A stretch of DNA of 64,000 nucleotides. It comes from an uncultured Holophaga sp. GTDB lineage: Bacteria; Acidobacteriota; Holophagae; Holophagales; Holophagaceae. The notes under the pieces were generated by a model. The model saw only the letters and a list, made by a program, of their open reading frames with translations. It was not told the origin of the DNA and made no database searches. Made by a program: the position numbers and the translations under genes. Shown here piece after piece: positions 16,824 through 40,819 of this stretch. Numbering within the stretch: the first letter of the stretch is position 1; every line of letters starts with the position of its first letter. Location: the NCBI GenBank assembly GCA_963663375.1, contig OY760195.1, positions 1,881,613 to 1,945,612 on the forward strand, given 5' to 3'.

Positions 16824-18578
16824 TCAGAAGTGCTCGATGGGGTAGACGCCCTTCTCGATGACCTGGGTGGCGATGCGGTCCCGCAGCTTGGCGCCGGGGA
16901 TGGGCTGGTAGCCGTCGAAGGCCCGCAGGGCGGCGAGAGCCTGGGTCAGGGTTTCACCTTCCAGTACCTCGGCCACCAGGAGGCGGGCGTGGTTGAGCAC
17001 GCGGCCGAAGCTTTCATTCACATAGACCTCGGCGCAATCCTTGGCGAATTCCGCCCAGCGGTGGCTGGAGGCCGCCATCTTCGCGGCGCGCACCACGGCG
17101 CATTCCATGGTGTAGACCTCGCTCACCATGTCGGCGGCCCGGGCGGCGGCTTCCTGGTTCTCGATGAGCTTCTGACCCGTGACCTCCAGACAGGCGGCAA
17201 TGGCGTACTGGGCCTGGCGCTTGGCCAGTTCCACGGCCTGCTCGGCCTTGCCCAGGGGACCGGTGCCGACCTTCGGCAGATCCGCCGTGTCCTTGCGCAG
17301 GGCCAGGGTGCCGTTACCGGACTTCTTGAAGACCTGCCCCGCGATGATCAGGCGGTTGATCTCGTTGGTGCCCTCGAAGAGGCGGTTGATGCGGTTGTCC
17401 CGGTAGATCTTCTCGGGCGGGTACTCCGCGGAGAAACCGTAGCCGCCGAAGCACTGCACGGCATCGTCGGCGATGAGGCCCAAGGCCTCGCTGTCCCAGA
17501 CCTTCATGATGGAGGCTTCCATCTGGAACTCGTCCATGATGTCCATCTTCTGCTTGGCGGCATCGGGCTGATCCCAGTGGGCCGCGTGCATGCCCTCGTT
17601 GATGTAGCCGATGGTGCGGAAGTTCATGCTCTCCGCCACAAAGATGCGCGTGGCCATGTCCGCCAGGTACTTGCGGATGAGGCCAAAGTTGTTGATGGTC
17701 TTGTTGAACTGCATCCGCTCGCCGGTGTACTTCAGGGTGTACTTCAGCACCTCCTTGGCGATGCCGTTGCAACCGGCGCCCAGCTTGAAGCGGCCGATGG
17801 CGAGGATGCCGAAGGCGATGCGATGGCCCTTGCCGATCTCGCCCAGCAGGCGGTCCTTGGGGATGCGGCAGTTGTCGAAGCTGAGGGCGCGGGTGCTGGA
17901 GCCCTTGATGCCCAGCTTGTGCTCCTCGGCGGCGATGGTGAAACCGGGATCGTTCTTCTCCACGATGAAGGCGCTGAACTTGCGGCCGTCCACCTTGGCG
18001 AAGACCACGAAGACATCCGCGAAGCCCGCGTTGGTGATCCACATCTTGGAGCCGTTGAGCACCCAGGTGTCGCCATCCAGGGTGGCCACGGTCTTGGCGT
18101 TCATGGCATCGCTGCCCGCGCCTGGCTCCGTTAGGGCATAGGCCGCCAGCAGCTCGCCGCTGCCAAGCTTGGGCAGGTAAGTGGCCTTCTGCTGCTCGGT
18201 GCCGAAGTAGACGATGGGCAGGGTGCCGATGCCCGTGTGGGCGCCGTAGGACACGGAGAAGGAGGCCTGGCGGCCCAGCTCCTCCAGCACCAGCAGGCCG
18301 GAGATCTTGTCCAGGTCCATGCCGTCGAAGGCTTCGGGAATTTCAAGACTCAGGAGCCCCAGCTCACCGGCCTTGCGGAGCAGATCCTTGGAGAGCTGGA
18401 GGTCGAGCTTGTCGATCTCCGCATCCTTGGGCAGCACCTCGCCCTCGATGAACTCGCGGGCGGCCTGGCCAATGGCCTGGGCGTCTTCGCTCAGCTCTTC
18501 GGGCGTGAACTGGGCCTGACTGCCGATGGGCGCCAGCAGAAAGCTGCCCCCAAAGATCGTCTCGTTCGTTGTTGCCAT
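16824..18578 (-). CDS. Acyl-CoA dehydrogenase (long-chain, FadE-like)
   Basis: 584 aa with all three ACAD domains (N-terminal, middle and C-terminal) readable in the translation. Confidence 0.85.
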   Translation of the reverse strand: MATTNETIFGGSFLLAPIGSQAQFTPEELSEDAQAIGQAAREFIEGEVLPKDAEIDKLDLQLSKDLLRKAGELGLLSLEIPEAFDGMDLDKISGLLVLEELGRQASFSVSYGAHTGIGTLPIVYFGTEQQKATYLPKLGSGELLAAYALTEPGAGSDAMNAKTVATLDGDTWVLNGSKMWITNAGFADVFVVFAKVDGRKFSAFIVEKNDPGFTIAAEEHKLGIKGSSTRALSFDNCRIPKDRLLGEIGKGHRIAFGILAIGRFKLGAGCNGIAKEVLKYTLKYTGERMQFNKTINNFGLIRKYLADMATRIFVAESMNFRTIGYINEGMHAAHWDQPDAAKQKMDIMDEFQMEASIMKVWDSEALGLIADDAVQCFGGYGFSAEYPPEKIYRDNRINRLFEGTNEINRLIIAGQVFKKSGNGTLALRKDTADLPKVGTGPLGKAEQAVELAKRQAQYAIAACLEVTGQKLIENQEAAARAADMVSEVYTMECAVVRAAKMAASSHRWAEFAKDCAEVYVNESFGRVLNHARLLVAEVLEGETLTQALAALRAFDGYQPIPGAKLRDRIATQVIEKGVYPIEHF

Positions 18579-18681
18579 GAAACCTCCAACAGGGTGCGGA
18601 TTCAGACTAAAGGTTCTATTTTACCGGAGCCAGACTACTGGATCCCATGGAGATTTCTACTCACCCCCCGCACCGACCATG

Positions 18682-18720
18682 AAACAAACTGGGGCCGTTG
18701 TAACGGCCCCAGTTTCTCTT
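18682..18720. terminator. Bidirectional rho-independent terminator
   Basis: aaacaaa-ctggggccg-ttgtaa-cggccccag-tttctctt between convergent genes. Confidence 0.55.
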
Positions 18721-18764
18721 GCACGATAGGTGTATGTCGAAACGACCCGTTTTCTCAGACGGAA

Positions 18765-19877
18765 CTATGGTTTCCCTGCCTCAACAAAGGTCATCTGATC
18801 GAGAAACAGCAGGTTTCCGTCTGGCTTGAACCGCCAGTTGAAATTACGCAAATCATCTGCGCACTCGATCCTGGATTTAACGTTTTGGGGAGTCGCAACC
18901 TCATGAAGGCGGCCATCTCCGAGATAAAAGTGCCACCACTGCACAACCGGGAAGGCTTTGGATGATTCGTCTGCATGCCGGTTGTGAAACCTCAGGAACT
19001 CCGACCACCAGGATTCAGAGGAAGTACCGGCAGAATCCGGGTGCTGGAATCGAGTATCGTCACCGAAGAGGCCCGCCGTTTCCGTGCGGGAGGCGATCAA
19101 GAGATCTCCATCCCGAGTGGGCTGAACCCCCAATAGCACGGGAAGCCCTGCCTTTTTTTCGACCACATCCTCGCTCAACCCGTTGAACAGCCGAACGACA
19201 CGCTTGAGGTTCCCTTTTCCCGAATCGACAACCCAGAAGTAGCCACTAGCCTGGGACGCGGCGACTAGATATCCGCCGCACCTAGTTATGGGATAAAGAC
19301 CTAGATCGAAAAGTCCAGGATATTGATGCTTCCCATCCGGCTTGAAGAAGGGTTTCCCCAGCCCCGCGTCGAAGGAATCCGTCACTTCGAAATCACCCGA
19401 GGAGGATACGCGCCAGATGTAGAAGGGCCTTTGGCCCTTGCCCTTGAGCATGCTGCCCACAGAAAGGTATTTCCCGTTACCAAGCTCGTATAGTTCGAAA
19501 GGAACCGGATGCTGGTCCTGCTCCCTGGCGGTAGGCCGCCATTTGCCCTGGGCCAGTACCCGCCATTTTCCTTCTTCGAACACAAAGATGGCTGTAAAGA
19601 AGAAGAGTCCCTCGGCATCCTGGGCGCGCCTGTGTTCCCGAGCATAGAGACGACCGTTGCAGTAGTCGTAGCAAAGCAGGCTGCCCCCCTGTAGGGGTTT
19701 CGGGTGCGGTACCTTCCAAACTATTTTTCCAGTGGGAGATTCACACTGCGCCGCAATGCCCCGTTCCGGATGGGTGACCACGAGATTAGGACCATCCCAG
19801 ATGCAGGGATTTGGAGCAAGAGCATTCTGCGCAACGAGCGCTCCCGAAAGGATCAAGAACAATCCCAGGGCTTTCAT
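18765..19877 (-). CDS. Hypothetical secreted protein (low-GC)
   Basis: The signal peptide MKALGLFLILSGALVAQNA begins at the internal Met, so the start is 19877. About 52% GC. No known domain. Confidence 0.5.
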   Translation of the reverse strand: MKALGLFLILSGALVAQNALAPNPCIWDGPNLVVTHPERGIAAQCESPTGKIVWKVPHPKPLQGGSLLCYDYCNGRLYAREHRRAQDAEGLFFFTAIFVFEEGKWRVLAQGKWRPTAREQDQHPVPFELYELGNGKYLSVGSMLKGKGQRPFYIWRVSSSGDFEVTDSFDAGLGKPFFKPDGKHQYPGLFDLGLYPITRCGGYLVAASQASGYFWVVDSGKGNLKRVVRLFNGLSEDVVEKKAGLPVLLGVQPTRDGDLLIASRTETAGLFGDDTRFQHPDSAGTSSESWWSEFLRFHNRHADESSKAFPVVQWWHFYLGDGRLHEVATPQNVKSRIECADDLRNFNWRFKPDGNLLFLDQMTFVEAGKP

Positions 19878-19896
19878 ACCGCCTCCCAAAAGAAGG

Positions 19897-20085
19897 CTAA
19901 CAATTTTTACCTACAAATTGTTCAAGCCTTGCGGCTGATATCGTGTGACCTTTCCAGTCGGATCGCGTCACTACGATGTACGTGCCATCACTGCAGGAAT
20001 GCACATAGCAATCCCCCTCTGGATATGCAAAGAGTGAGGTTGTCATTAAGGCTAGGACAAACGCCAGATGAATTGCTTTTTTCAT
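19897..20085 (-). CDS. Small secreted Cys-containing protein (62 aa, low-GC)
   Basis: MKKAIHLAFVLALMTTSLFA signal peptide followed by a 42-aa mature part with 4 Cys. It lies immediately downstream of the poly-C/G tract. Confidence 0.4.
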   Translation of the reverse strand: MKKAIHLAFVLALMTTSLFAYPEGDCYVHSCSDGTYIVVTRSDWKGHTISAARLEQFVGKNC

Positions 20086-20124
20086 TATTTGCCTCCATGA
20101 GATTCGAACCAACTTATCAGCGGG

Positions 20125-20139
20125 GGGGGGGGGGGGTGA
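20125..20139. repeat. Homopolymeric G(15)/C(15) tract
   Basis: A run of ~15 G on the + strand 13-40 nt upstream of the small secreted-protein gene start(s) on the - strand. It is flanked by the short palindrome gtgacgggggtcac and the direct repeat CATGA(G/A)ATTCGAA. Confidence 0.8.
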
Positions 20140-20228
20140 CGGGGGTCACGATCACCCCAGCATGAATTCGAATCATCAGAAGTAGCGCACGCCATCGAAG
20201 TGGGCATGCTAGCAATTACGAGGTCACA

Positions 20229-20924
20229 ATGCCCGAGGGTGCCAAGGTCCAGTCCATGTTCAGCGGCATCGCGCCCCGCTACGACCTGCTGAACCATCTG
20301 CTGAGTCTGGGAGTCGATTTCTACTGGTGGCGCTGCATGGCGAGGGCATCTGGGGCCCAGCCCGGCAAGCGGATGCTGGATGTGGCCGCGGGCACGGGCG
20401 ATTCCAGCCTCGCCCTGGCGCGGCGAGGGGCCGAGGTCATCAGCACGGATTTCACCCAGGCCATGCTGGCCCTGGGCCCCGCCAAGTTCCGCCGGAAGCG
20501 CCTGGAAAATCTCGTGTGGGCCAGCGTGGGCGCCGATGCCCAGCGCCTGCCCTTCACGCCGGAATCTTTCGACGGAGTAACCATCTGCTACGGCATCCGC
20601 AACGTGGAACGCCGTCCCCTGGCCTACGCCGAGTTCCTGCGGGTGCTGAAGCCCGGCGGGCGTTTGGCGATCCTGGAATTCAGCCGCCCGCGCTGGGCCT
20701 GGCTGCGCGCCTTCTATGATTTCTACAGCCTGAGGATCCTGCCCCGAATCGGCAGGTGGGTCAGCGGCGACGCCAGCGCCTACACCTACCTGCCGGAGAG
20801 CATCCGCGCCTTTCCGGACCAGCCCGCCCTGGCGGCGGAACTGTCGGCGGCGGGGTTCAGCCGGGTGACGTGGCGGAACCTCACGGGCGGAATCGTGGCC
20901 CTGCACGTGGCGGAAAAGCCCTAA
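20229..20924 (+). CDS. ubiE: Demethylmenaquinone/ubiquinone methyltransferase
   Basis: Class I SAM MTase motif (LDVAAGTGD) and a full-length UbiE/MenG match. The translation was checked codon by codon. Confidence 0.85.
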   Translation: MPEGAKVQSMFSGIAPRYDLLNHLLSLGVDFYWWRCMARASGAQPGKRMLDVAAGTGDSSLALARRGAEVISTDFTQAMLALGPAKFRRKRLENLVWASVGADAQRLPFTPESFDGVTICYGIRNVERRPLAYAEFLRVLKPGGRLAILEFSRPRWAWLRAFYDFYSLRILPRIGRWVSGDASAYTYLPESIRAFPDQPALAAELSAAGFSRVTWRNLTGGIVALHVAEKP

Positions 20925-20999: not shown

Positions 21000-21203
21000 A
21001 TGTCCAAGCCCGATCCTTCCATCACCGCCAACCTGCTCGGCACGCTGACGGCCAAACCCACCCAGGAAGGCCACGATGGCCTCAAGCCCGGCAAGCCCGG
21101 CCACGCCGAGCGCCATCCGGCCCCCACCGCCCACAAGCCCTCCAAGCCCGCCCCCAACAAGCAGGCCTCGGCCCACACCCGCAGTACCAATCGCGGGAAG
21201 TAG
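21000..21203 (+). CDS. Small basic Lys/Pro-rich hypothetical protein
   Basis: An RBS, gagg, lies 7 nt before the ATG (MSKPDPS...). The protein is low-complexity. Weak support. Confidence 0.25.
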   Translation: MSKPDPSITANLLGTLTAKPTQEGHDGLKPGKPGHAERHPAPTAHKPSKPAPNKQASAHTRSTNRGK

Positions 21204-35693: not shown

Positions 35694-37346
35694 TCAGTGC
35701 TTCGGTCGCTCCAGGTAGGTCGCCGCGCCCTTCATCTCGGCGGTGGGGCCGTGGGCTGGCCCCTTGGCCTTGCTGCGCCGTGCGCCATGGGCCCACTGGA
35801 CCTTCAGGGCCGTGGCCTCGGGATGGCCCGGGGCGAGCCGGAGCACTTCGGCCAGATCGGCGAGGGCCTCGGCGCGCCGCCCCAGCTTCTCCCGGAGGAG
35901 GGCCTGCTTCAGGAAACCCCAGGTATTGCCGGGTTCCTGGGCCACAATCTCCGCGTATTCGGCCTCGGCCTCGATGAACCGCCCTCCCTCCTCCGCAACC
36001 TCCCCGCACAGAAGATTCGTCACCGTGCAGAAGCCCAGCCAAGCCTTTTGCTCCGCGAATTCCCGAGGCGAGTATGCGGCCTTCCGCTTGATCTGATTTG
36101 CCACGGCGTCCAGGTGGCGCAGGGCCCGCTCCGTGTGGACATCCACCCGGGCGAAGACCTCCGCATCGCCGGTGGCCCGGAAGAAATCCTTCGCGATGCG
36201 CCCCTCTTCCCGATAGCGGTCGAAGAGTCGGGTGCCGGGATAGAGCGCCAACGGGGAGATCTGCACATCGTGAGGGCGGACCTCGCGGATGAAGGCGGCG
36301 CTCTCCTCTACATCCTCCCAGGTCTCGCCGGGAATGCCGGTGATGAGAAAGACGCCGAGGTTGAGCCCTACCTTGCGCACCAGGGACAGCGCGTTGCGCG
36401 CCTGGCGCATGTTGGTGCCCTTGTCCAAAAGCGCCAGCACCCGCTCGCTGGCGTGCTCCACACCGAACTGCATGAACTCGCAGCCCGCCCGTTTCATGGC
36501 CACCAGGCGATCCTCGTCCACCAGATTCACGCGGCTCTGGCAGTTCCAAATGGGATGCAGCCCACTCCCCTGGATCAGCTCCATGAGTTTGAGAATGCGC
36601 CCCCTGTTGGCGGTGAAGGTGTCATCCCGGAAGGAGAAGTAGGTGAGCCCGTGCCGTGCCCGCAGCAGGTTCATCTCCTGAAGCACCGCCTCGGGACTGC
36701 GGAAGCGGATGGAACTGCCCCAGAATTCCGGCGTGTTGCAGAAGTTGCAGGTGGCCGGGCAGCCCCGGCTGGTGCTGAGGTACGCCAGCTGGCCCACGTC
36801 ATCGAGGAAATCAGCCTCGAAGTGCTGGGCGGGGAAACCGATGACATCGAGGTTCTCGAGGGGCGCCTGGCTCAGAGTCTCGCCCTCCCGCAGGATGAGG
36901 CCCGGCGCCCGTCTCCAGAGATCCGAACCCGGTGCCGCAGCCAGTCGTTCCACCACCCCCAGGAGGGGCAACTCGCCCTCGCCCTTCACGATGGCATCCA
37001 GGGCCGGACATTCCTGGAAGACCTCCGTGGCGAGATGGGTGGGATGGGGCCCACCCGCCAGCAGCACCGCGGCGGGATGGGCTTCCCGCGCCCACTGCAG
37101 CAGCTCGAAGCTCCGCTTGCGGTTGAAGGTGAACATGGAGATGCCGATGACCTCGGCTCTCTGCGACTGGAAGTAGGCCAACGCGTCCTTGCGGGACATC
37201 CCGGAGAGGTTGGCCAAGCGGCAGGGGTAACCCTTCTGCTTGAGCGCCGCCTGGAGATACCCCAGCCCGATGGGAAGGAAGCGCATCCACTCGTCGCCGA
37301 AACCGCTGCGGGGGGCGCTGTACACCAACAGAACCGAGGGCTTCAC
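35694..37346 (-). CDS. B12-binding domain radical SAM protein with C-terminal TPR region
   Basis: N-terminal cobalamin-binding domain (Rossmann-like), the radical SAM cluster motif CPATCNFC, and C-terminal TPR-like repeats. GTG start overlapping the stop of the upstream PilZ gene. Confidence 0.8.
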   Translation of the reverse strand: MKPSVLLVYSAPRSGFGDEWMRFLPIGLGYLQAALKQKGYPCRLANLSGMSRKDALAYFQSQRAEVIGISMFTFNRKRSFELLQWAREAHPAAVLLAGGPHPTHLATEVFQECPALDAIVKGEGELPLLGVVERLAAAPGSDLWRRAPGLILREGETLSQAPLENLDVIGFPAQHFEADFLDDVGQLAYLSTSRGCPATCNFCNTPEFWGSSIRFRSPEAVLQEMNLLRARHGLTYFSFRDDTFTANRGRILKLMELIQGSGLHPIWNCQSRVNLVDEDRLVAMKRAGCEFMQFGVEHASERVLALLDKGTNMRQARNALSLVRKVGLNLGVFLITGIPGETWEDVEESAAFIREVRPHDVQISPLALYPGTRLFDRYREEGRIAKDFFRATGDAEVFARVDVHTERALRHLDAVANQIKRKAAYSPREFAEQKAWLGFCTVTNLLCGEVAEEGGRFIEAEAEYAEIVAQEPGNTWGFLKQALLREKLGRRAEALADLAEVLRLAPGHPEATALKVQWAHGARRSKAKGPAHGPTAEMKGAATYLERPKH

Positions 37347-38458
37347 GTGGGCTCCCTGGGCGCCATGACGCCTTCGCCGCCCTCGTAGTGGCGGCGCAGC
37401 ACGCCCTGGAGCAGCCGCTGAAAGAAGGGCCCCGGCTTGGGGCCGATGACTACGGAGGCCGATGCCTTCAGTTCCGTGCCCAGTTCCATGAGCCCCGATG
37501 CCTCCACCCCCGTGCCTACCAGCAGGAAGGGTTGCCGGGGCGGGAGCACCTCCACCAGAGTGCGCAGGCGCTTGCGTTCGTCCAAGCCCAGGCTGGGCAG
37601 GTGGAAGAGGAGGAGCGCGGGATGGGCCATGACCGCCTCCTTCATGGCCGCCATGGTGGGTGGAATGCGGCGCAGGGGCGGGAGGTCCACCAGGTAGTTC
37701 CGCAACCCCTCTTCCATCTCGGCGGAGGTCGATACCAGCACCAGGCCCCCCGCGCCGGTGGTGGGGGCGGGGCTGAGGGGCGTACCCAGGCTTCGCAGGC
37801 GATCACTGTCTTCCTCCCGTCGCTGGAAGACCCACCGGGAGAGGGGCGTGAGCACGGGCTCCGGCAGGATGGGCACGAACTCGAGCCCCAGCGCGCGCCC
37901 CTGGATCCACCGCACCACGGCGGGAGCGTTGATCTTGAGTTCCTCCGCCACGGGAATCGTGACGGTCATGGGATTCCCGATCTCGAAGAGTGCATCCAGT
38001 TTTTCCTGCTGGGAGTAAATGCGCGCCCCCGTGGCGCTGAGACTCGCCAAAAGTCCGGTGCGGATCTCGAAGCGGGGGGTGCTGAAGGTGACCTCAATGC
38101 GCCCGACGCGCTCGGCGCGATAGGCCCCCCGCTGGTCATCCTCCCGAAGCGTCTTGGGCAGTTCCAGCCGCAGGCTGCGGCGCCCCTCCACCATGCCGAA
38201 GCCCAGCAGCCGCGTCTTGCCTTCCAGAAAGCGGGTGGCGTGGGGGAAGCGGAACCGCAGATCGGCGCTGCGCAGGCCGAACATCGCATCCTCGGCCCCC
38301 ATGGTGGCCCGGGCTTGGAGGGCACCTTGCTCCATCTGCAGGAAGTTGGATTCGAAGCGGAGGTAAGGCGTAACAAGGATCATCAGTTCGCGGTTGGCGC
38401 AAGCCTGGGCCAGGATCCCCTGGACCTCCCCCGCCGCACTCACCACGAAATGCCCCAT
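37343..38458 (-). CDS. YcgR-like PilZ-domain protein, paralog 1 (PilZN + PilZ + degenerate REC-like C-terminus)
   Basis: RxxxR (QRGAYRAER) and a degenerate (D/N)xSxxG motif (SLSATGARI). The N-terminus is shared with the two downstream paralogs (AQACxxRELxIL(A/V)TPYLRFES). The C-terminal ~130 aa form a receiver-like fold that lacks the acidic pocket. Confidence 0.6.
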   Translation of the reverse strand: MGHFVVSAAGEVQGILAQACANRELMILVTPYLRFESNFLQMEQGALQARATMGAEDAMFGLRSADLRFRFPHATRFLEGKTRLLGFGMVEGRRSLRLELPKTLREDDQRGAYRAERVGRIEVTFSTPRFEIRTGLLASLSATGARIYSQQEKLDALFEIGNPMTVTIPVAEELKINAPAVVRWIQGRALGLEFVPILPEPVLTPLSRWVFQRREEDSDRLRSLGTPLSPAPTTGAGGLVLVSTSAEMEEGLRNYLVDLPPLRRIPPTMAAMKEAVMAHPALLLFHLPSLGLDERKRLRTLVEVLPPRQPFLLVGTGVEASGLMELGTELKASASVVIGPKPGPFFQRLLQGVLRRHYEGGEGVMAPREPT

Positions 38459-38561
38459 GACCTCCCCGTTTGGCCTGCGCTCAGGCTGGTTCCACCATAG
38501 TTGGTGTAGTTCTTAAACTGTATCCTCATCCCTGCACGATAAGAGAAGGCGGGAGGCTTCG

Positions 38562-39692
38562 GTGACCATCACCATCAAGGACCAGAGTGACATCCGCGAA
38601 CTGCTGGCCCAGGCCTGCACCCGCCGGGAGCTGCTCATCCTGGCCACGCCCTACCTGCGCTTCGAGTCCAGCTTCGTGGCGCTGGAAGAAAACGAACTCC
38701 ACGTGCTGGCCACCATGAGCCGGGACGATGCGGCCTTCGGGCTCAAGACCAGCGACCTCAAGATCCGCTTTCCCCAGGGCCTTGGATTCTTCGAGTCCTC
38801 GGTTCAGATGCTCGGCCTGGGCCTCTACGAAGGGCGGCGCACGGTGCGCCTCTCCATCCCCAGGAGCGTCCAGGAGAATGACCAGCGAGTGGCCTTTCGG
38901 GTGGAGCGCCTGGGCAAGGTGGAGGTGACCTTCAGCACCCCCAGGGCCGATCTCTATACCGCCACTCTGCTGGATGTGAGCACCTCCGGCGCCCGGATTC
39001 ACACCCGTGTGGACCTGCCTGAGGGGGCGATGTACGCCGGGGATCCCATCCGGGTCTCCATTCCCCTCGACCACGGCATTCGCATCGAGGGGGGCGCGCG
39101 GGTGCGGCACATGCGGGGCCGCAGCGTGGGCCTGCAGTACCAGCCGGAGCTGGGCCCCGAGGTCCTGGAACCCCTCTCCCGGTGGGTCTTCCTGCGCCGG
39201 GAGGAGGAGCGGGAACGAATGGCCCGGCGCCTGGAGCAGGCGGCCTGGTCGGAACCCCAGGGCAGTGGCATCGCCGAACTGAGCATCCTCCTGATCAGCG
39301 CCGATCCCGATCTGGAACAGGAACTGAAGGAGGCTCTGGCGGGAGTTCGTCCCCTCACCCGCCTCGCCCCCGCGGCCCAGGCCCTCAAGGACGCCCTGTC
39401 CGCCAAGCCCTCGTTGGCCATCTTCCATGTGGGCGGCGCCGGACTGGACGAGCGGCGGCGCCTCAAGACCCTCCTCGAGATCGCCCAACGCAAGGTCCCC
39501 ACCCTCCTGCTGGGCACCGAGGTGGATGGCGCCACCCTCTTCGAGCTGGCCAGCGAATGGAAGGCCTCCAGCGCCATGAGCTGGAATCACGGGCGCGGCC
39601 CCTTCCTCGAGCGGCTGGTGCGTGGCATGATCCGGCGCCACATGGACTCGGGGGAAGGCCCCATGGCCCCCTTCGAGGCCGGGGAGCCCTGA
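38562..39692 (+). CDS. YcgR-like PilZ-domain protein, paralog 2
   Basis: Canonical c-di-GMP-binding motifs QRVAFRVER (RxxxR) and DVSTSGARI (DxSxxG). The C-terminus is a pseudo-receiver domain. Confidence 0.65.
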   Translation: MTITIKDQSDIRELLAQACTRRELLILATPYLRFESSFVALEENELHVLATMSRDDAAFGLKTSDLKIRFPQGLGFFESSVQMLGLGLYEGRRTVRLSIPRSVQENDQRVAFRVERLGKVEVTFSTPRADLYTATLLDVSTSGARIHTRVDLPEGAMYAGDPIRVSIPLDHGIRIEGGARVRHMRGRSVGLQYQPELGPEVLEPLSRWVFLRREEERERMARRLEQAAWSEPQGSGIAELSILLISADPDLEQELKEALAGVRPLTRLAPAAQALKDALSAKPSLAIFHVGGAGLDERRRLKTLLEIAQRKVPTLLLGTEVDGATLFELASEWKASSAMSWNHGRGPFLERLVRGMIRRHMDSGEGPMAPFEAGEP

Positions 39693-40819
39693 TGAAACTG
39701 CCCTTTCGGGAGTCCTCCAAGGCCCCGGGAGCCCTGGAGGGCGTCCAGCGGGACGAGGTTCTCGCGGAATTATGCACGCGCCACCAGGCCTGCCTGCTGG
39801 CCACCCCCTACCTCAGCTTCGAATCCCGGATGCTGGAAGTGACGCCCAGCGAACTCTGCGTGCGGGCCACCATGAGCCGCGAGGCGGCCAAGCACGCCCT
39901 GGGTCAACAGCCGCTGAAGCTGCGATTTCCCTGGGGCCTCACCTTCTACTCGGGTACGACCAAGGTGCTCGGCTACGAGCAGGGCGAGCAGCGCCGCACC
40001 CTGCGCCTGGCGATTCCACCCTGGCTGGAGCCCGATGAGCAGCGCAAGGCCTTCCGCCTGGAGCGGGTGGGCCGCTGTCACGGCGCCCTGGGAAACCAGG
40101 AGGGAAACCTGCTGCGCATCACCCTGGAAAACATCTCGCAGCATGGCGCGGGGGTCTTCTGCCTGGAACCCATTCCCCCCGAGGGTTTCCAGACTGGGCG
40201 CGTCCTGTCGCTGGCCCTGGGGCTGGACCAGGGGCCCAGCCTGCGCTTCGAGGCGCGGGTCTGCCACGGCCAGGGCCAATACCTCGGCCTCCGGTTCGAT
40301 CCCAGGCCGGGACCGGAAACCGCCGGGGCCCTCCAGGAATGGCTGGACCCGCGCATCGAAGACACTCAGCGCCGGTGGGACGACCGCGCCGAACTCAGGG
40401 CCCATGCCGAACAGGCGGCCAGACCCAAGCTCCCCCCCGCCGGTGTGCTGTTGCTCTCCAGGGATCCGACTCTGACCGCCCAGGTGGCCGAAGCGCTGGA
40501 CAACCTCCAGCCCGTGCGGAGCGCCCCCCCCAGCATGGCTGCCTACAAGGAGACCCTCGAACCGCCGCCCCTGCTGTTGCTTTTAGATATTTCGGGAGCC
40601 GACGGCGAGGAACGCCATCGGCTGCGGGGACTGTTGGAGGGCCAGCCGCCCGGCTGTCCAATCCTGGTGCTCGGTCGCGAAGGCGACCCGGACACCTGGC
40701 GCACCCTGGCCTCGGACCTGAAGGCGCGGCTCTACCTCACCTGGAATCCCACCCAGATGGTGTTTTTCCGCAGGCTGGTGCTGGGCCTGATTCAGCGGCA
40801 CTGGAAACAGGCCGAGTAG
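39692..40819 (+). CDS. YcgR-like PilZ-domain protein, paralog 3
   Basis: Its ATG overlaps the paralog-2 stop (tgATG). RxxxR (QRKAFRLER) and NxSxxG (ENISQHGAGV). The C-terminal receiver-like domain keeps Asp residues at the beta1 and beta3 positions. Confidence 0.65.
   Translation: MKLPFRESSKAPGALEGVQRDEVLAELCTRHQACLLATPYLSFESRMLEVTPSELCVRATMSREAAKHALGQQPLKLRFPWGLTFYSGTTKVLGYEQGEQRRTLRLAIPPWLEPDEQRKAFRLERVGRCHGALGNQEGNLLRITLENISQHGAGVFCLEPIPPEGFQTGRVLSLALGLDQGPSLRFEARVCHGQGQYLGLRFDPRPGPETAGALQEWLDPRIEDTQRRWDDRAELRAHAEQAARPKLPPAGVLLLSRDPTLTAQVAEALDNLQPVRSAPPSMAAYKETLEPPPLLLLLDISGADGEERHRLRGLLEGQPPGCPILVLGREGDPDTWRTLASDLKARLYLTWNPTQMVFFRRLVLGLIQRHWKQAE

What the first reader, a model, noticed from the sequence alone, without database searches (positions are those of the whole stretch)
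19897..20230. ~15-nt poly-G/C homopolymer with flanking palindrome and direct repeat upstream of a low-GC small secreted-protein locus: candidate phase-variation switch
A G15 run is extremely unusual in a ~67% GC genome that otherwise lacks long homopolymers. It lies 13-40 nt upstream of the start(s) of a 62-aa signal-peptide-bearing, 4-Cys protein, which is followed by a 370-aa secreted protein. Both are ~52% GC, which suggests horizontal acquisition. Tracts of this length undergo slipped-strand mispairing and classically switch expression of surface or secreted proteins. Two other features flank the tract. One is a short palindrome (gtgacgggggtcac). The other is a ~12-nt direct repeat, CATGA(G/A)ATTCGAA, which contains a GGTTCGAATC-like tRNA T-loop motif on the opposite strand. 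That motif may be a remnant of an integration site.
Basis: seen in the sequence. Interest (0 to 1): 0.6.

Follow-up and report, generated by a model that had tools for sequence, protein, structure and literature searches.

The report
Unstable G15 tract before acquired cassette
A run of 15 G's sits in the control region of a strain-specific, horizontally acquired pair of secreted-protein genes in an uncultured Holophagaceae bacterium, and it is probably a slippage-prone on/off or volume switch of a known kind, though length variation is shown only as a one-base difference between two assemblies.

Summary
The G15 run is real (window 20122-20136). It is the only homopolymer longer than 8 nt in the 64 kb, and it is longer than any run (maximum 10) in 969 kb of related Holophagaceae DNA.

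It lies in a 143-nt divergent intergenic region. It is 36 nt upstream of the ATG of a 62-aa signal-peptide gene, which is followed by a 370-aa secreted beta-propeller gene, and 92 nt upstream of ubiE.

The two genes belong to a 1.63-kb low-GC segment. This segment replaces the 98-nt ACAD-ubiE spacer found in five near-identical relatives and in most other Holophagaceae, so horizontal acquisition is strongly supported.

The 370-aa protein is not an orphan. It has 209 remote homologues, and five of the six gene neighbourhoods examined (counting the window) have the same small Cys peptide plus propeller pair. That pair always has lower GC than its neighbours.

The closest homologous cassette carries a different repeat, (TG)13, between TTGACA and TAGTGT in its promoter.

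Two assemblies of the same population are identical over 33.8 kb except for G14 versus G15. This fits slippage, but it also fits long-read homopolymer error.

Verdict: a credible candidate promoter phase-variation tract and a new member of a known kind. The tRNA/integration-remnant idea is not supported.

The parts
20122..20136 (+). G15 homopolymer (C15 on the strand of the small gene). It is G14 in the ENA assembly of the same population.
20136..20149 (.). Palindrome GTGAC-GGGG-GTCAC (equivalently GTGA-N6-TCAC), abutting the tract. It could be a regulator-binding site or a small hairpin. An alternative pairing is GGGGTGA (20133-20139) with TCACCCC (20152-20158).
   Evidence: not significant on its own
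20111..20119 (-). Candidate extended -10 element TGATAAGTT (TGnTAAGTT), 2 nt downstream of the C-tract on the minus strand. Inferred, not mapped.
   Evidence: read from the sequence; spacing simulation; the strict consensus scan finds no promoter
20096..20108 (.). Repeat copy 1, CATGAGATTCGAA. It contains the TTCGAA palindrome, and GGTTCGAATC lies on the opposite strand. It overlaps the GGAGG ribosome-binding site (20092-20096) of the small gene.
20161..20172 (.). Repeat copy 2, CATGAATTCGAA. It lies inside the imperfect palindrome ATGA-ATTCGAAT-CAT.
19897..20085 (-). 62-aa gene: signal peptide followed by a 3-Cys mature peptide. ATG at 20085, GGAGG 6 nt upstream, 45% GC.
18765..19877 (-). 370-aa secreted beta-propeller protein from an uncharacterised family (209 remote homologues). 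55% GC.
18686..18715 (-). Perfect 14-bp inverted repeat, followed on the minus strand by a T-rich stretch. It is terminator-like and lies downstream of the 370-aa gene.
   Evidence: (I4)
18599..20228 (.). Strain-specific 1630-nt low-GC segment that replaces the ancestral 98-nt ACAD-ubiE intergenic region. The right break is exactly at the ubiE ATG.
20229..20924 (+). ubiE/menG methyltransferase. Its entire ancestral upstream region has been replaced, so its ribosome-binding site and promoter now lie in the acquired DNA that holds the tract.
16824..18578 (-). Acyl-CoA dehydrogenase (ACAD), the conserved left flank of the insertion.

Best explanation
The G15/C15 run is a hypermutable simple-sequence repeat in the promoter region of a horizontally acquired two-gene operon. 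The operon encodes a small disulfide-type secreted peptide and a secreted beta-propeller protein.

Proposed mechanism: slipped-strand mispairing during replication adds or removes single G:C pairs. This changes the distance and helical phase between upstream promoter or activator elements (the GTGAC-GGGG-GTCAC palindrome, or a weak -35-like GTCACC at the tract edge) and an extended -10-like TGATAAGTT that lies 2 nt downstream of the tract. The operon is then expressed at different levels in different cells. The divergent ubiE gene has lost its ancestral upstream region and may be affected as well.

Shown:
- the tract, its rarity and its position
- that the cassette is foreign
- a 14/15 length difference between assemblies
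- an independent repeat in the promoter of a homologous cassette

Inferred:
- the promoter elements
- that the length difference is biological
- that length affects transcription
For: 1. Rarity. It is the only run longer than 8 nt in 64 kb, with expectation 0.004-0.01. There is no run longer than 10 nt and no mono- or dinucleotide repeat of 12 nt or more in 969 kb of related loci.

2. Position. The tract lies 36-50 nt upstream of the ATG of the small gene. The Bordetella homopolymer survey treats 21-80 nt upstream as the class most likely to overlap a promoter. In that work the fim2 and fim3 C-stretches of 10-15 and 13-18 nt lie between the activator site and the -10 box (PMC1891110).

3. Length difference. 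The window and the Logan contig of ERR12015700 have G15. The 3.39-Mb ENA contig has G14. This is the sole difference in 12.7 + 21.1 kb compared.

4. Independent repeat. The nearest homologue (39% identity) sits in the same small-peptide plus propeller arrangement and has TTGACA-(TG)13-TAGTGT just upstream. Both assemblies of that locus break at or next to the repeat. Given a background of no comparable repeat in about 1 Mb, one further hit in roughly 750 nt of five other cassette upstream regions is unlikely by chance.

5. Promoter type. Another cassette member has a canonical TTGACG-18-AAGAAT promoter at the same place, so these cassettes appear to use sigma-70-type promoters.

6. Spacing. 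With 14 or 15 C's, the -35-like GTCACC sits 17 or 18 nt from TAAGTT. This is weak evidence because the match is 3 of 6.

7. Gene products. Both carry signal peptides, and the cassette is recently acquired. This is the usual class of genes under this kind of control.
Against: - The 14-versus-15 difference is exactly what long-read homopolymer miscounting gives. Homopolymer length is the main HiFi error (PMC7545148). The contig name suggests metaMDBG, which compresses homopolymers and then polishes them (PMC11392814). No read-level data were available.
- The strict sigma-70 consensus scan finds no promoter in the region. The proposed -35 and -10 elements each match only 3 of 6 positions.
- The palindrome is not statistically unusual.
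- Only 2 of 6 cassette neighbourhoods have a repeat.
- Phase variation has not been described in Acidobacteriota in the literature I could search.
- The (TG)13 spacer is 26 nt, so that promoter as assembled would be off or use other elements.
Confidence: 0.5

Rival explanations
1. Passenger tract. The run arose by chance expansion, or came in with the foreign DNA, and has no selected switching role. It is unstable, but its length changes are neutral. The cassette is expressed from elements that are not sensitive to tract length.
For: - The cassette is very recent and strain-specific, so there has been little time to purge an unstable tract.
- Four of six cassette contexts have no repeat.
- No recognisable strong promoter spans the tract.
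Against: - Long G/C runs are strongly avoided in this lineage. Runs of 8 nt or more number 2 in the window against 11-16 expected, and the maximum is 10 in 969 kb.
- A second, different repeat at the equivalent place in the closest homologous cassette is hard to explain by accident.
Confidence: 0.25
2. Structural promoter element. Poly(G)·poly(C) here, and (TG)n in the homologous cassette, act through non-B DNA (G-quadruplex or H-DNA, and Z-DNA respectively), or by excluding or recruiting DNA-binding proteins. They tune or insulate the two divergent promoters in a supercoiling-dependent way rather than through length mutation.
For: - G15 is the minimum length for a three-tetrad intramolecular quadruplex with 1-nt loops (read from the sequence).
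- (TG)13 is a classical Z-DNA former.
- Both lie just upstream of -10-like hexamers in homologous cassettes.
- The tract lies between two divergent genes.
Against: - Ordinary single-strand folding of the region is no better than shuffled sequence (z = -0.4 and -0.1).
- Nothing tested here addresses non-B DNA.
- Such tracts mutate in length regardless, so this rival is not exclusive of the main explanation.
Confidence: 0.12
3. Sequencing or assembly artefact. The run, or its length, is produced by the platform or assembler and does not exist as such in the genome.
For: - The length differs between assemblies.
- Long-read homopolymer calls are error-prone.
Against: - A 14-15-nt run with identical unique flanks is present in three assemblies made by different programs: the window, the ENA contig and the Logan k-mer contig.
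- It is internal to multi-megabase contigs, not at a read or contig end.
- Only the exact count is uncertain, not the existence of the tract.
Confidence: 0.05
4. Remnant of a tRNA-linked integration site. The TTCGAA-containing direct repeats would be att-like duplications from a tRNA T-arm.
For: - GGTTCGAATC is present on the minus strand.
- Two 12-13-nt repeat copies flank the tract.
Against: - No tRNA or tRNA fragment is detected by ARAGORN or Rfam.
- The flanks of TTCGAAT (GTTGG / CTCAT) are not complementary.
- The ancestral locus in relatives is a plain 98-nt spacer without a tRNA.
- The segment has no integrase.
- The repeats bracket about 50 nt, not the 1.63-kb segment.
- There is no other copy of the region in the window or in the fetched loci.
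Confidence: 0.03

Closest known systems
Bordetella pertussis/bronchiseptica fim2, fim3, fimX promoter 'C-stretch' (Willems et al. 1990; Gogol et al. 2007, PMC1891110)
   Same: - An uninterrupted poly-C run of about 10-18 nt lies on the coding strand, just upstream of the -10 box and downstream of an activator-binding region.
- It controls genes for exported or surface proteins.
- One-base length changes alter transcription.
- The organism is high-GC.
   Different: - No BvgA-type activator site or 'fim box' is known here.
- The promoter is unmapped.
- The organism is an uncultured, free-living Holophagaceae.
- The target is an uncharacterised peptide plus beta-propeller pair, not fimbriae.
- The tract is shared with a divergent housekeeping gene (ubiE).
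Neisseria meningitidis porA / opc poly-G / poly-C tracts in the -35/-10 spacer (my own knowledge; general background in PMC5084427)
   Same: - A homopolymer occupies most of the promoter spacer, so its length sets the spacer distance.
- It gives graded or on/off expression of an outer-surface protein.
   Different: - Those promoters have mapped -35 and -10 elements and tracts of about 9-14 nt.
- Here the -35-like element matches only 3 of 6 positions, and nothing has been mapped.
Haemophilus influenzae hifA/hifB (TA)n repeat between divergent promoters (my own knowledge)
   Same: - A repeat in a divergent intergenic region sets the spacing of promoter hexamers.
- This is the best analogue for the TTGACA-(TG)13-TAGTGT arrangement in the homologous cassette (L092), and for a tract shared by two divergent genes.
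   Different: - That system uses a dinucleotide repeat in a low-GC pathogen.
- Both of its genes belong to one fimbrial system, whereas here one partner is a housekeeping gene.
Homopolymer-tract phase variation in Mycobacterium tuberculosis (PMC10334774)
   Same: It is a precedent for G/C homopolymer slippage as an adaptive mechanism in a high-GC organism that is not one of the classical mucosal pathogens (Neisseria, Haemophilus).
   Different: Those tracts are mostly short (7-10 nt) and lie within coding sequence, acting through frameshifts. They are not 15-nt promoter tracts.

Membership tests
Simple-sequence-repeat promoter phase-variation locus (contingency locus) | Uninterrupted repeat far longer than composition predicts | tested here: met
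   G15 against an expectation of 0.004-0.01 per window. The next longest run is 8 nt. The maximum is 10 in 969 kb of relatives.
Simple-sequence-repeat promoter phase-variation locus (contingency locus) | Repeat lies within or between core promoter elements, or within about 21-80 nt of the start codon | tested here: inconclusive
   The distance criterion is met: 36-50 nt upstream of the ATG (criterion from PMC1891110). The promoter hexamers are only weak matches (TGnTAAGTT; GTCACC 3 of 6), and the strict scan finds none.
Simple-sequence-repeat promoter phase-variation locus (contingency locus) | Repeat length is polymorphic within or between populations | tested here: inconclusive
   G14 (ENA contig) versus G15 (window and Logan contig) is the only difference in 33.8 kb. 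This cannot be separated from long-read homopolymer error.
Simple-sequence-repeat promoter phase-variation locus (contingency locus) | Expression changes reversibly with repeat length | not testable with these tools
   Needs reporter fusions, or paired read-length and transcript data.
Simple-sequence-repeat promoter phase-variation locus (contingency locus) | Controlled genes encode surface or secreted products. Related loci carry repeats independently. | tested here: met
   Both products have N-terminal signal peptides (family consensus). The closest homologous cassette has (TG)13 in its promoter.
Horizontally acquired gene cassette / genomic islet | Absent from close relatives at an otherwise conserved locus | tested here: met
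   Five relatives with flanks 92-98% identical to the window, and about 65 of 80 Holophagaceae loci, have ACAD and ubiE about 100-150 nt apart with no cassette.
Horizontally acquired gene cassette / genomic islet | Atypical composition and codon usage | tested here: met
   GC is 0.536 against 0.64-0.66 in the flanks. GC3 is 0.44 and 0.61 against 0.85-0.91. Homologous cassettes are also lower in GC than their neighbours in every locus, and they sit in different genomic contexts.
tRNA-linked integrative element (att remnant) | tRNA gene or 3' fragment at the boundary, an integrase, and direct repeats bounding the element | tested here: not met
   There is no tRNA and no integrase. The repeats bracket only about 50 nt around the tract. 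The ancestral site has no tRNA.
CRP/FNR-type class II activator site | TGTGA-N6-TCACA-like palindrome centred near -41.5 | tested here: inconclusive
   A GTGA-N6-TCAC core is present, centred about 38.5 nt upstream of an inferred start site. The motif occurs twice in the window against 0.75 expected, and 17 of 100 shuffles reach that count. The start site is not mapped.
Methylamine dehydrogenase-like pair (small Cys-rich subunit plus beta-propeller heavy chain, with MauE) | Sequence or specific fold similarity to MauA/MauB | tested here: not met

The most novel reading that the evidence does not exclude
The small-peptide plus beta-propeller pair is a previously undescribed mobile secreted-protein cassette of high-GC environmental bacteria. 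It lands in different genomic sites and repeatedly carries different hypermutable repeats at its promoter-proximal edge: G15 here and (TG)13 in the nearest relative. This would make it the first contingency-locus family recognised in free-living Acidobacteriota. The repeat might also mark, or take part in, the cassette boundary.
Probability: 0.25. Interest if true: 0.65.

Novelty: new member of a known kind. Interest (0 to 1): 0.45.

Why it matters
Repeat-driven phase variation is known almost entirely from host-adapted pathogens. A convincing case in an uncultured Holophagaceae would extend the strategy to free-living Acidobacteriota, especially with an independent repeat at the same place in a homologous cassette. 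It would also mark an uncharacterised secreted peptide/beta-propeller cassette as being under fluctuating selection, for example from phage, predators or competitors.

There is a practical lesson too. In long-read metagenome assemblies, the single base that differs between assemblies can be the biologically interesting one. Homopolymer polishing can hide it or invent it.

Tried and rejected
- tRNA/att remnant: ARAGORN and Rfam find nothing at the site. Rejected.
- Structured RNA or DNA element: folding of the intergenic region is no better than shuffles, and there is no Rfam hit.
- Repeated or mobile mini-element (MITE-like): there is no second copy of the 143-nt region in the window or in any fetched locus.
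- Homology of the right-hand part of the insert to the ancestral spacer: not significant (16 of 200 shuffles reach the observed score). Only about 30 nt at the left edge look like a diverged spacer.
- Scan of JGI metagenomes for G10+TGACGGGGGTCAC: one hit (L091), in an unrelated, very GC-rich contig that has several poly-G runs. Judged to be chance.
- Orphan status of the 370-aa protein: the word-indexed search found only the protein itself, but the full HMMER scan found 209 homologues.
- Function of the cassette: no hits in Pfam, NCBIfam, PADLOC or PDB sequences. Fold searches give only generic beta-propellers.
- A third tract-length measurement from run ERR12015701: the look-ups collapsed that contig as 'similar place not shown', and the marC look-up did not expose it.
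- AlphaFold database (afdb50) fold search: the library was unavailable.

Full report
**1. The observation**

The sequence at 20120-20150 reads gc-G15-TGACGGGGGTCAC.
- A census of the window finds G15 at 20122-20136. Every other homopolymer is 8 nt or shorter.
- From base or dinucleotide composition, 0.004-0.01 G/C runs of 15 or more are expected.
- Runs of 8 or more are under-represented: 2 seen against 11-16 expected. Long runs are therefore avoided in this genome.
- In 969 kb from 85 related Holophagaceae loci, the longest G/C run is 10 (once). There is no mono- or dinucleotide repeat of 12 nt or more. The longest repeats are trinucleotides repeated four times.
- The palindrome (20136-20149) and the two CATGA(G)ATTCGAA copies (20096-20108 and 20161-20172) are present.
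- The palindrome core GTGA-N6-TCAC is not significant by itself: 2 in the window against 0.75 expected.

**2. Gene context**

The tract lies in a 143-nt divergent intergenic region.
- On the minus strand is a 62-aa gene (ATG at 20085, GGAGG 6 nt upstream, stop at 19897). It was called as 62 aa in an independent assembly.
- A 370-aa gene follows 19 nt later (18765-19877). A perfect 14-bp hairpin (18686-18715) lies downstream of it.
- On the plus strand is ubiE/menG (20229-20924, Pfam E = 5e-60).
- The tract is 36 nt from the ATG of the small gene and 92 nt from the ubiE ATG.

**3. Organism and the insertion**

The window matches a 3.39-Mb ENA metagenome contig (ERZ21878447, ctg45502l) and Logan contigs of runs ERR12015700 and ERR12015701. 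The best relatives are Holophaga and other Holophagaceae metagenome-assembled genomes, plus Geothrix.
- In about 65 of 80 related loci, ACAD and ubiE are adjacent and divergent, 100-150 nt apart.
- Five close relatives have flanks 92-98% identical to the window. They carry an identical 67-aa protein downstream of ubiE and a conserved 98-nt spacer.
- In the window that spacer is replaced by 1630 nt (18599-20228). Similarity stops about 20 nt before the ACAD start on one side and exactly at the ubiE ATG on the other.
- Only the first ~30 nt of the insert resemble the old spacer.
- The segment is 53.6% GC against 64-66% in the flanks. GC3 is 0.44 and 0.61 against 0.85-0.91.
- Divergence from the nearest relative rises next to both junctions: 14 differences in 300 nt on the ACAD side against about 0.8% further away, and 14 in 200 nt on the ubiE side against about 2.6%. 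This fits import by homologous recombination from a more distant donor that already had the cassette at this locus. That is an inference.
- One consequence is that the ancestral upstream region of ubiE is gone. The ubiE ribosome-binding site and promoter now lie in the acquired DNA that contains the tract.

**4. The cassette**

- The word-indexed searches found only self-hits for both proteins.
- A full HMMER scan of 1.84 billion representatives found 209 homologues of the 370-aa protein. They share at most 39% identity and are mostly 350-410 aa.
- There are no hits in Pfam, NCBIfam, PADLOC or PDB sequences.
- Gene neighbourhoods of five homologues were examined. Four have a 60-75-aa ORF immediately upstream. 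These ORFs were often not called by the gene finders, and one has an internal stop. Each has a signal peptide, a Cys just after the cleavage site and a Cys near the C-terminus. The fifth has none.
- In every locus the cassette has lower GC than its neighbours, and the flanking genes differ from locus to locus.
- This is therefore a recurrent, apparently mobile two-gene module of unknown function.

**5. Evidence bearing on a switch**

(a) *Length.* Over 12.7 kb around the site and a further 21.1 kb (27343-48458), the ENA contig and the window are identical except for G14 versus G15. The Logan contig of ERR12015700 has G15. This is what a hypermutable tract would give. It is also what long-read homopolymer miscounting would give.
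- Homopolymer length is the main HiFi error (PMC7545148).
- metaMDBG, which the contig name suggests (an inference), compresses homopolymers and then polishes them (PMC11392814).
- I could not obtain reads or the ERR12015701 contig.

(b) *Independent repeat.* The closest homologous cassette (P0003, loci L092 and L093) has CTTGACA-(TG)13-TAGTGT about 40 nt upstream of the ribosome-binding site of its small gene.
- One assembly starts 14 nt before the repeat, and the other starts inside it.
- Repeats of this size are absent from about 1 Mb of background sequence, so a second one at the equivalent spot is unlikely to be coincidence.
- The other four contexts have no repeat. One of them has a canonical TTGACG-18-AAGAAT promoter at this position.

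(c) *Promoter geometry (inferred).* On the minus strand the sequence reads GTGACCCCCGTCA-C15-GC-TGATAAGTT-...-GGAGG-N6-ATG.
- TGnTAAGTT is an extended -10-like motif 2 nt after the tract.
- With 14 or 15 C's, the -35-like GTCACC at the upstream edge of the tract is 17 or 18 nt away.
- The palindrome would be centred near -38.5.
- The hexamer matches are weak (3 of 6), and the strict consensus scan reports no promoter.

(d) *Structure.* Folding of the region as DNA or RNA is not better than shuffles.

**6. Comparison with known systems**

The arrangement works like the Bordetella fim C-stretch promoters. There, C10-15 in fim2 and C13-18 in fim3 lie between an activator site and the -10 box, and single-base changes alter transcription (PMC1891110). 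It also resembles the Neisseria porA/opc spacer tracts. The (TG)13 relative resembles the Haemophilus hif (TA)n spacer. The last two comparisons rest on my own knowledge.

Membership in the class is only partly testable. Repeat length and position are met. Polymorphism is inconclusive. The effect on expression is untestable here.

**7. The tRNA/integration idea**

- There is no tRNA or fragment at the site.
- The bases around TTCGAAT cannot form a T-stem.
- The ancestral locus has no tRNA, and there is no integrase.
- The repeats bracket about 50 nt rather than the cassette.
- Because TTCGAA is self-complementary, the two copies are also an inverted pair around the tract.
- No other copy of the region exists in the sequences held.

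**8. Verdict**

The phase-variation reading is the best explanation, but I hold it at about 0.5. The main rivals are a neutral passenger tract (0.25) and a structural non-B-DNA promoter element (0.12). An artefact is unlikely for the existence of the tract but quite possible for the 14/15 count. It is a new member of a known kind of switch, attached to an uncharacterised cassette family. Interest is moderate.

Noticed in passing
L092 1-100 (JGI Ga0116245_10015556) and L093 1-26 (Logan SRR7903765): A (TG)13 dinucleotide repeat lies between a perfect TTGACA and TAGTGT, upstream of the closest homologous small-peptide plus propeller cassette. Both assemblies end at or within 14 nt of the repeat. 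This could reflect repeat-length heterogeneity or a cassette presence/absence boundary.
   Followed up: partly
window 18300-18598 and 20229-20430: Divergence from the nearest relative (L085) is several-fold higher within 200-300 nt of both insertion junctions than further away. This suggests the cassette came in by homologous recombination, with flanking ACAD and ubiE sequence from a more distant donor.
   Followed up: partly
window 21000-21203 (+): A 67-aa Pro/Lys-rich ORF lies just downstream of ubiE. It is 100% identical in several relatives and conserved (40-70% identity) across many Holophagaceae loci. It has no Pfam or NCBIfam match.
   Followed up: no
window about 37343-40819: Three consecutive ~371-376-aa PilZ-domain paralogues (two on one strand, one divergent) lie next to a B12-binding radical SAM gene, according to the annotation of the matching ENA contig (L101).
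   Followed up: no
L091 177-206 (JGI Ga0115007_10024360): An unrelated, very GC-rich contig has a run of 19 G's followed by the same 15 nt, TGACGGGGGTCACGA. The contig has further poly-G runs, including one at its end. Probably a chance match in an enormous database.
   Followed up: partly
L098 2423-3250 / L099 3251-4078: In one homologous cassette the propeller gene is followed, with a 4-nt overlap, by a MauE-family (PF07291) membrane protein gene. Small Cys peptide plus propeller plus MauE loosely recalls methylamine dehydrogenase gene clusters.
   Followed up: partly
L100 1388-1570: The small-peptide ORF upstream of homologue P0006 has an in-frame TAG stop. It is either a pseudogene or a sequencing error.
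   Followed up: no
window 18536 and 21528: The Logan contig of ERR12015700 that carries the cassette ends at these positions, inside ACAD and inside marC. The complete marC product was also found on no Logan contig. This hints at strain-level branching in the population near the cassette.
   Followed up: no
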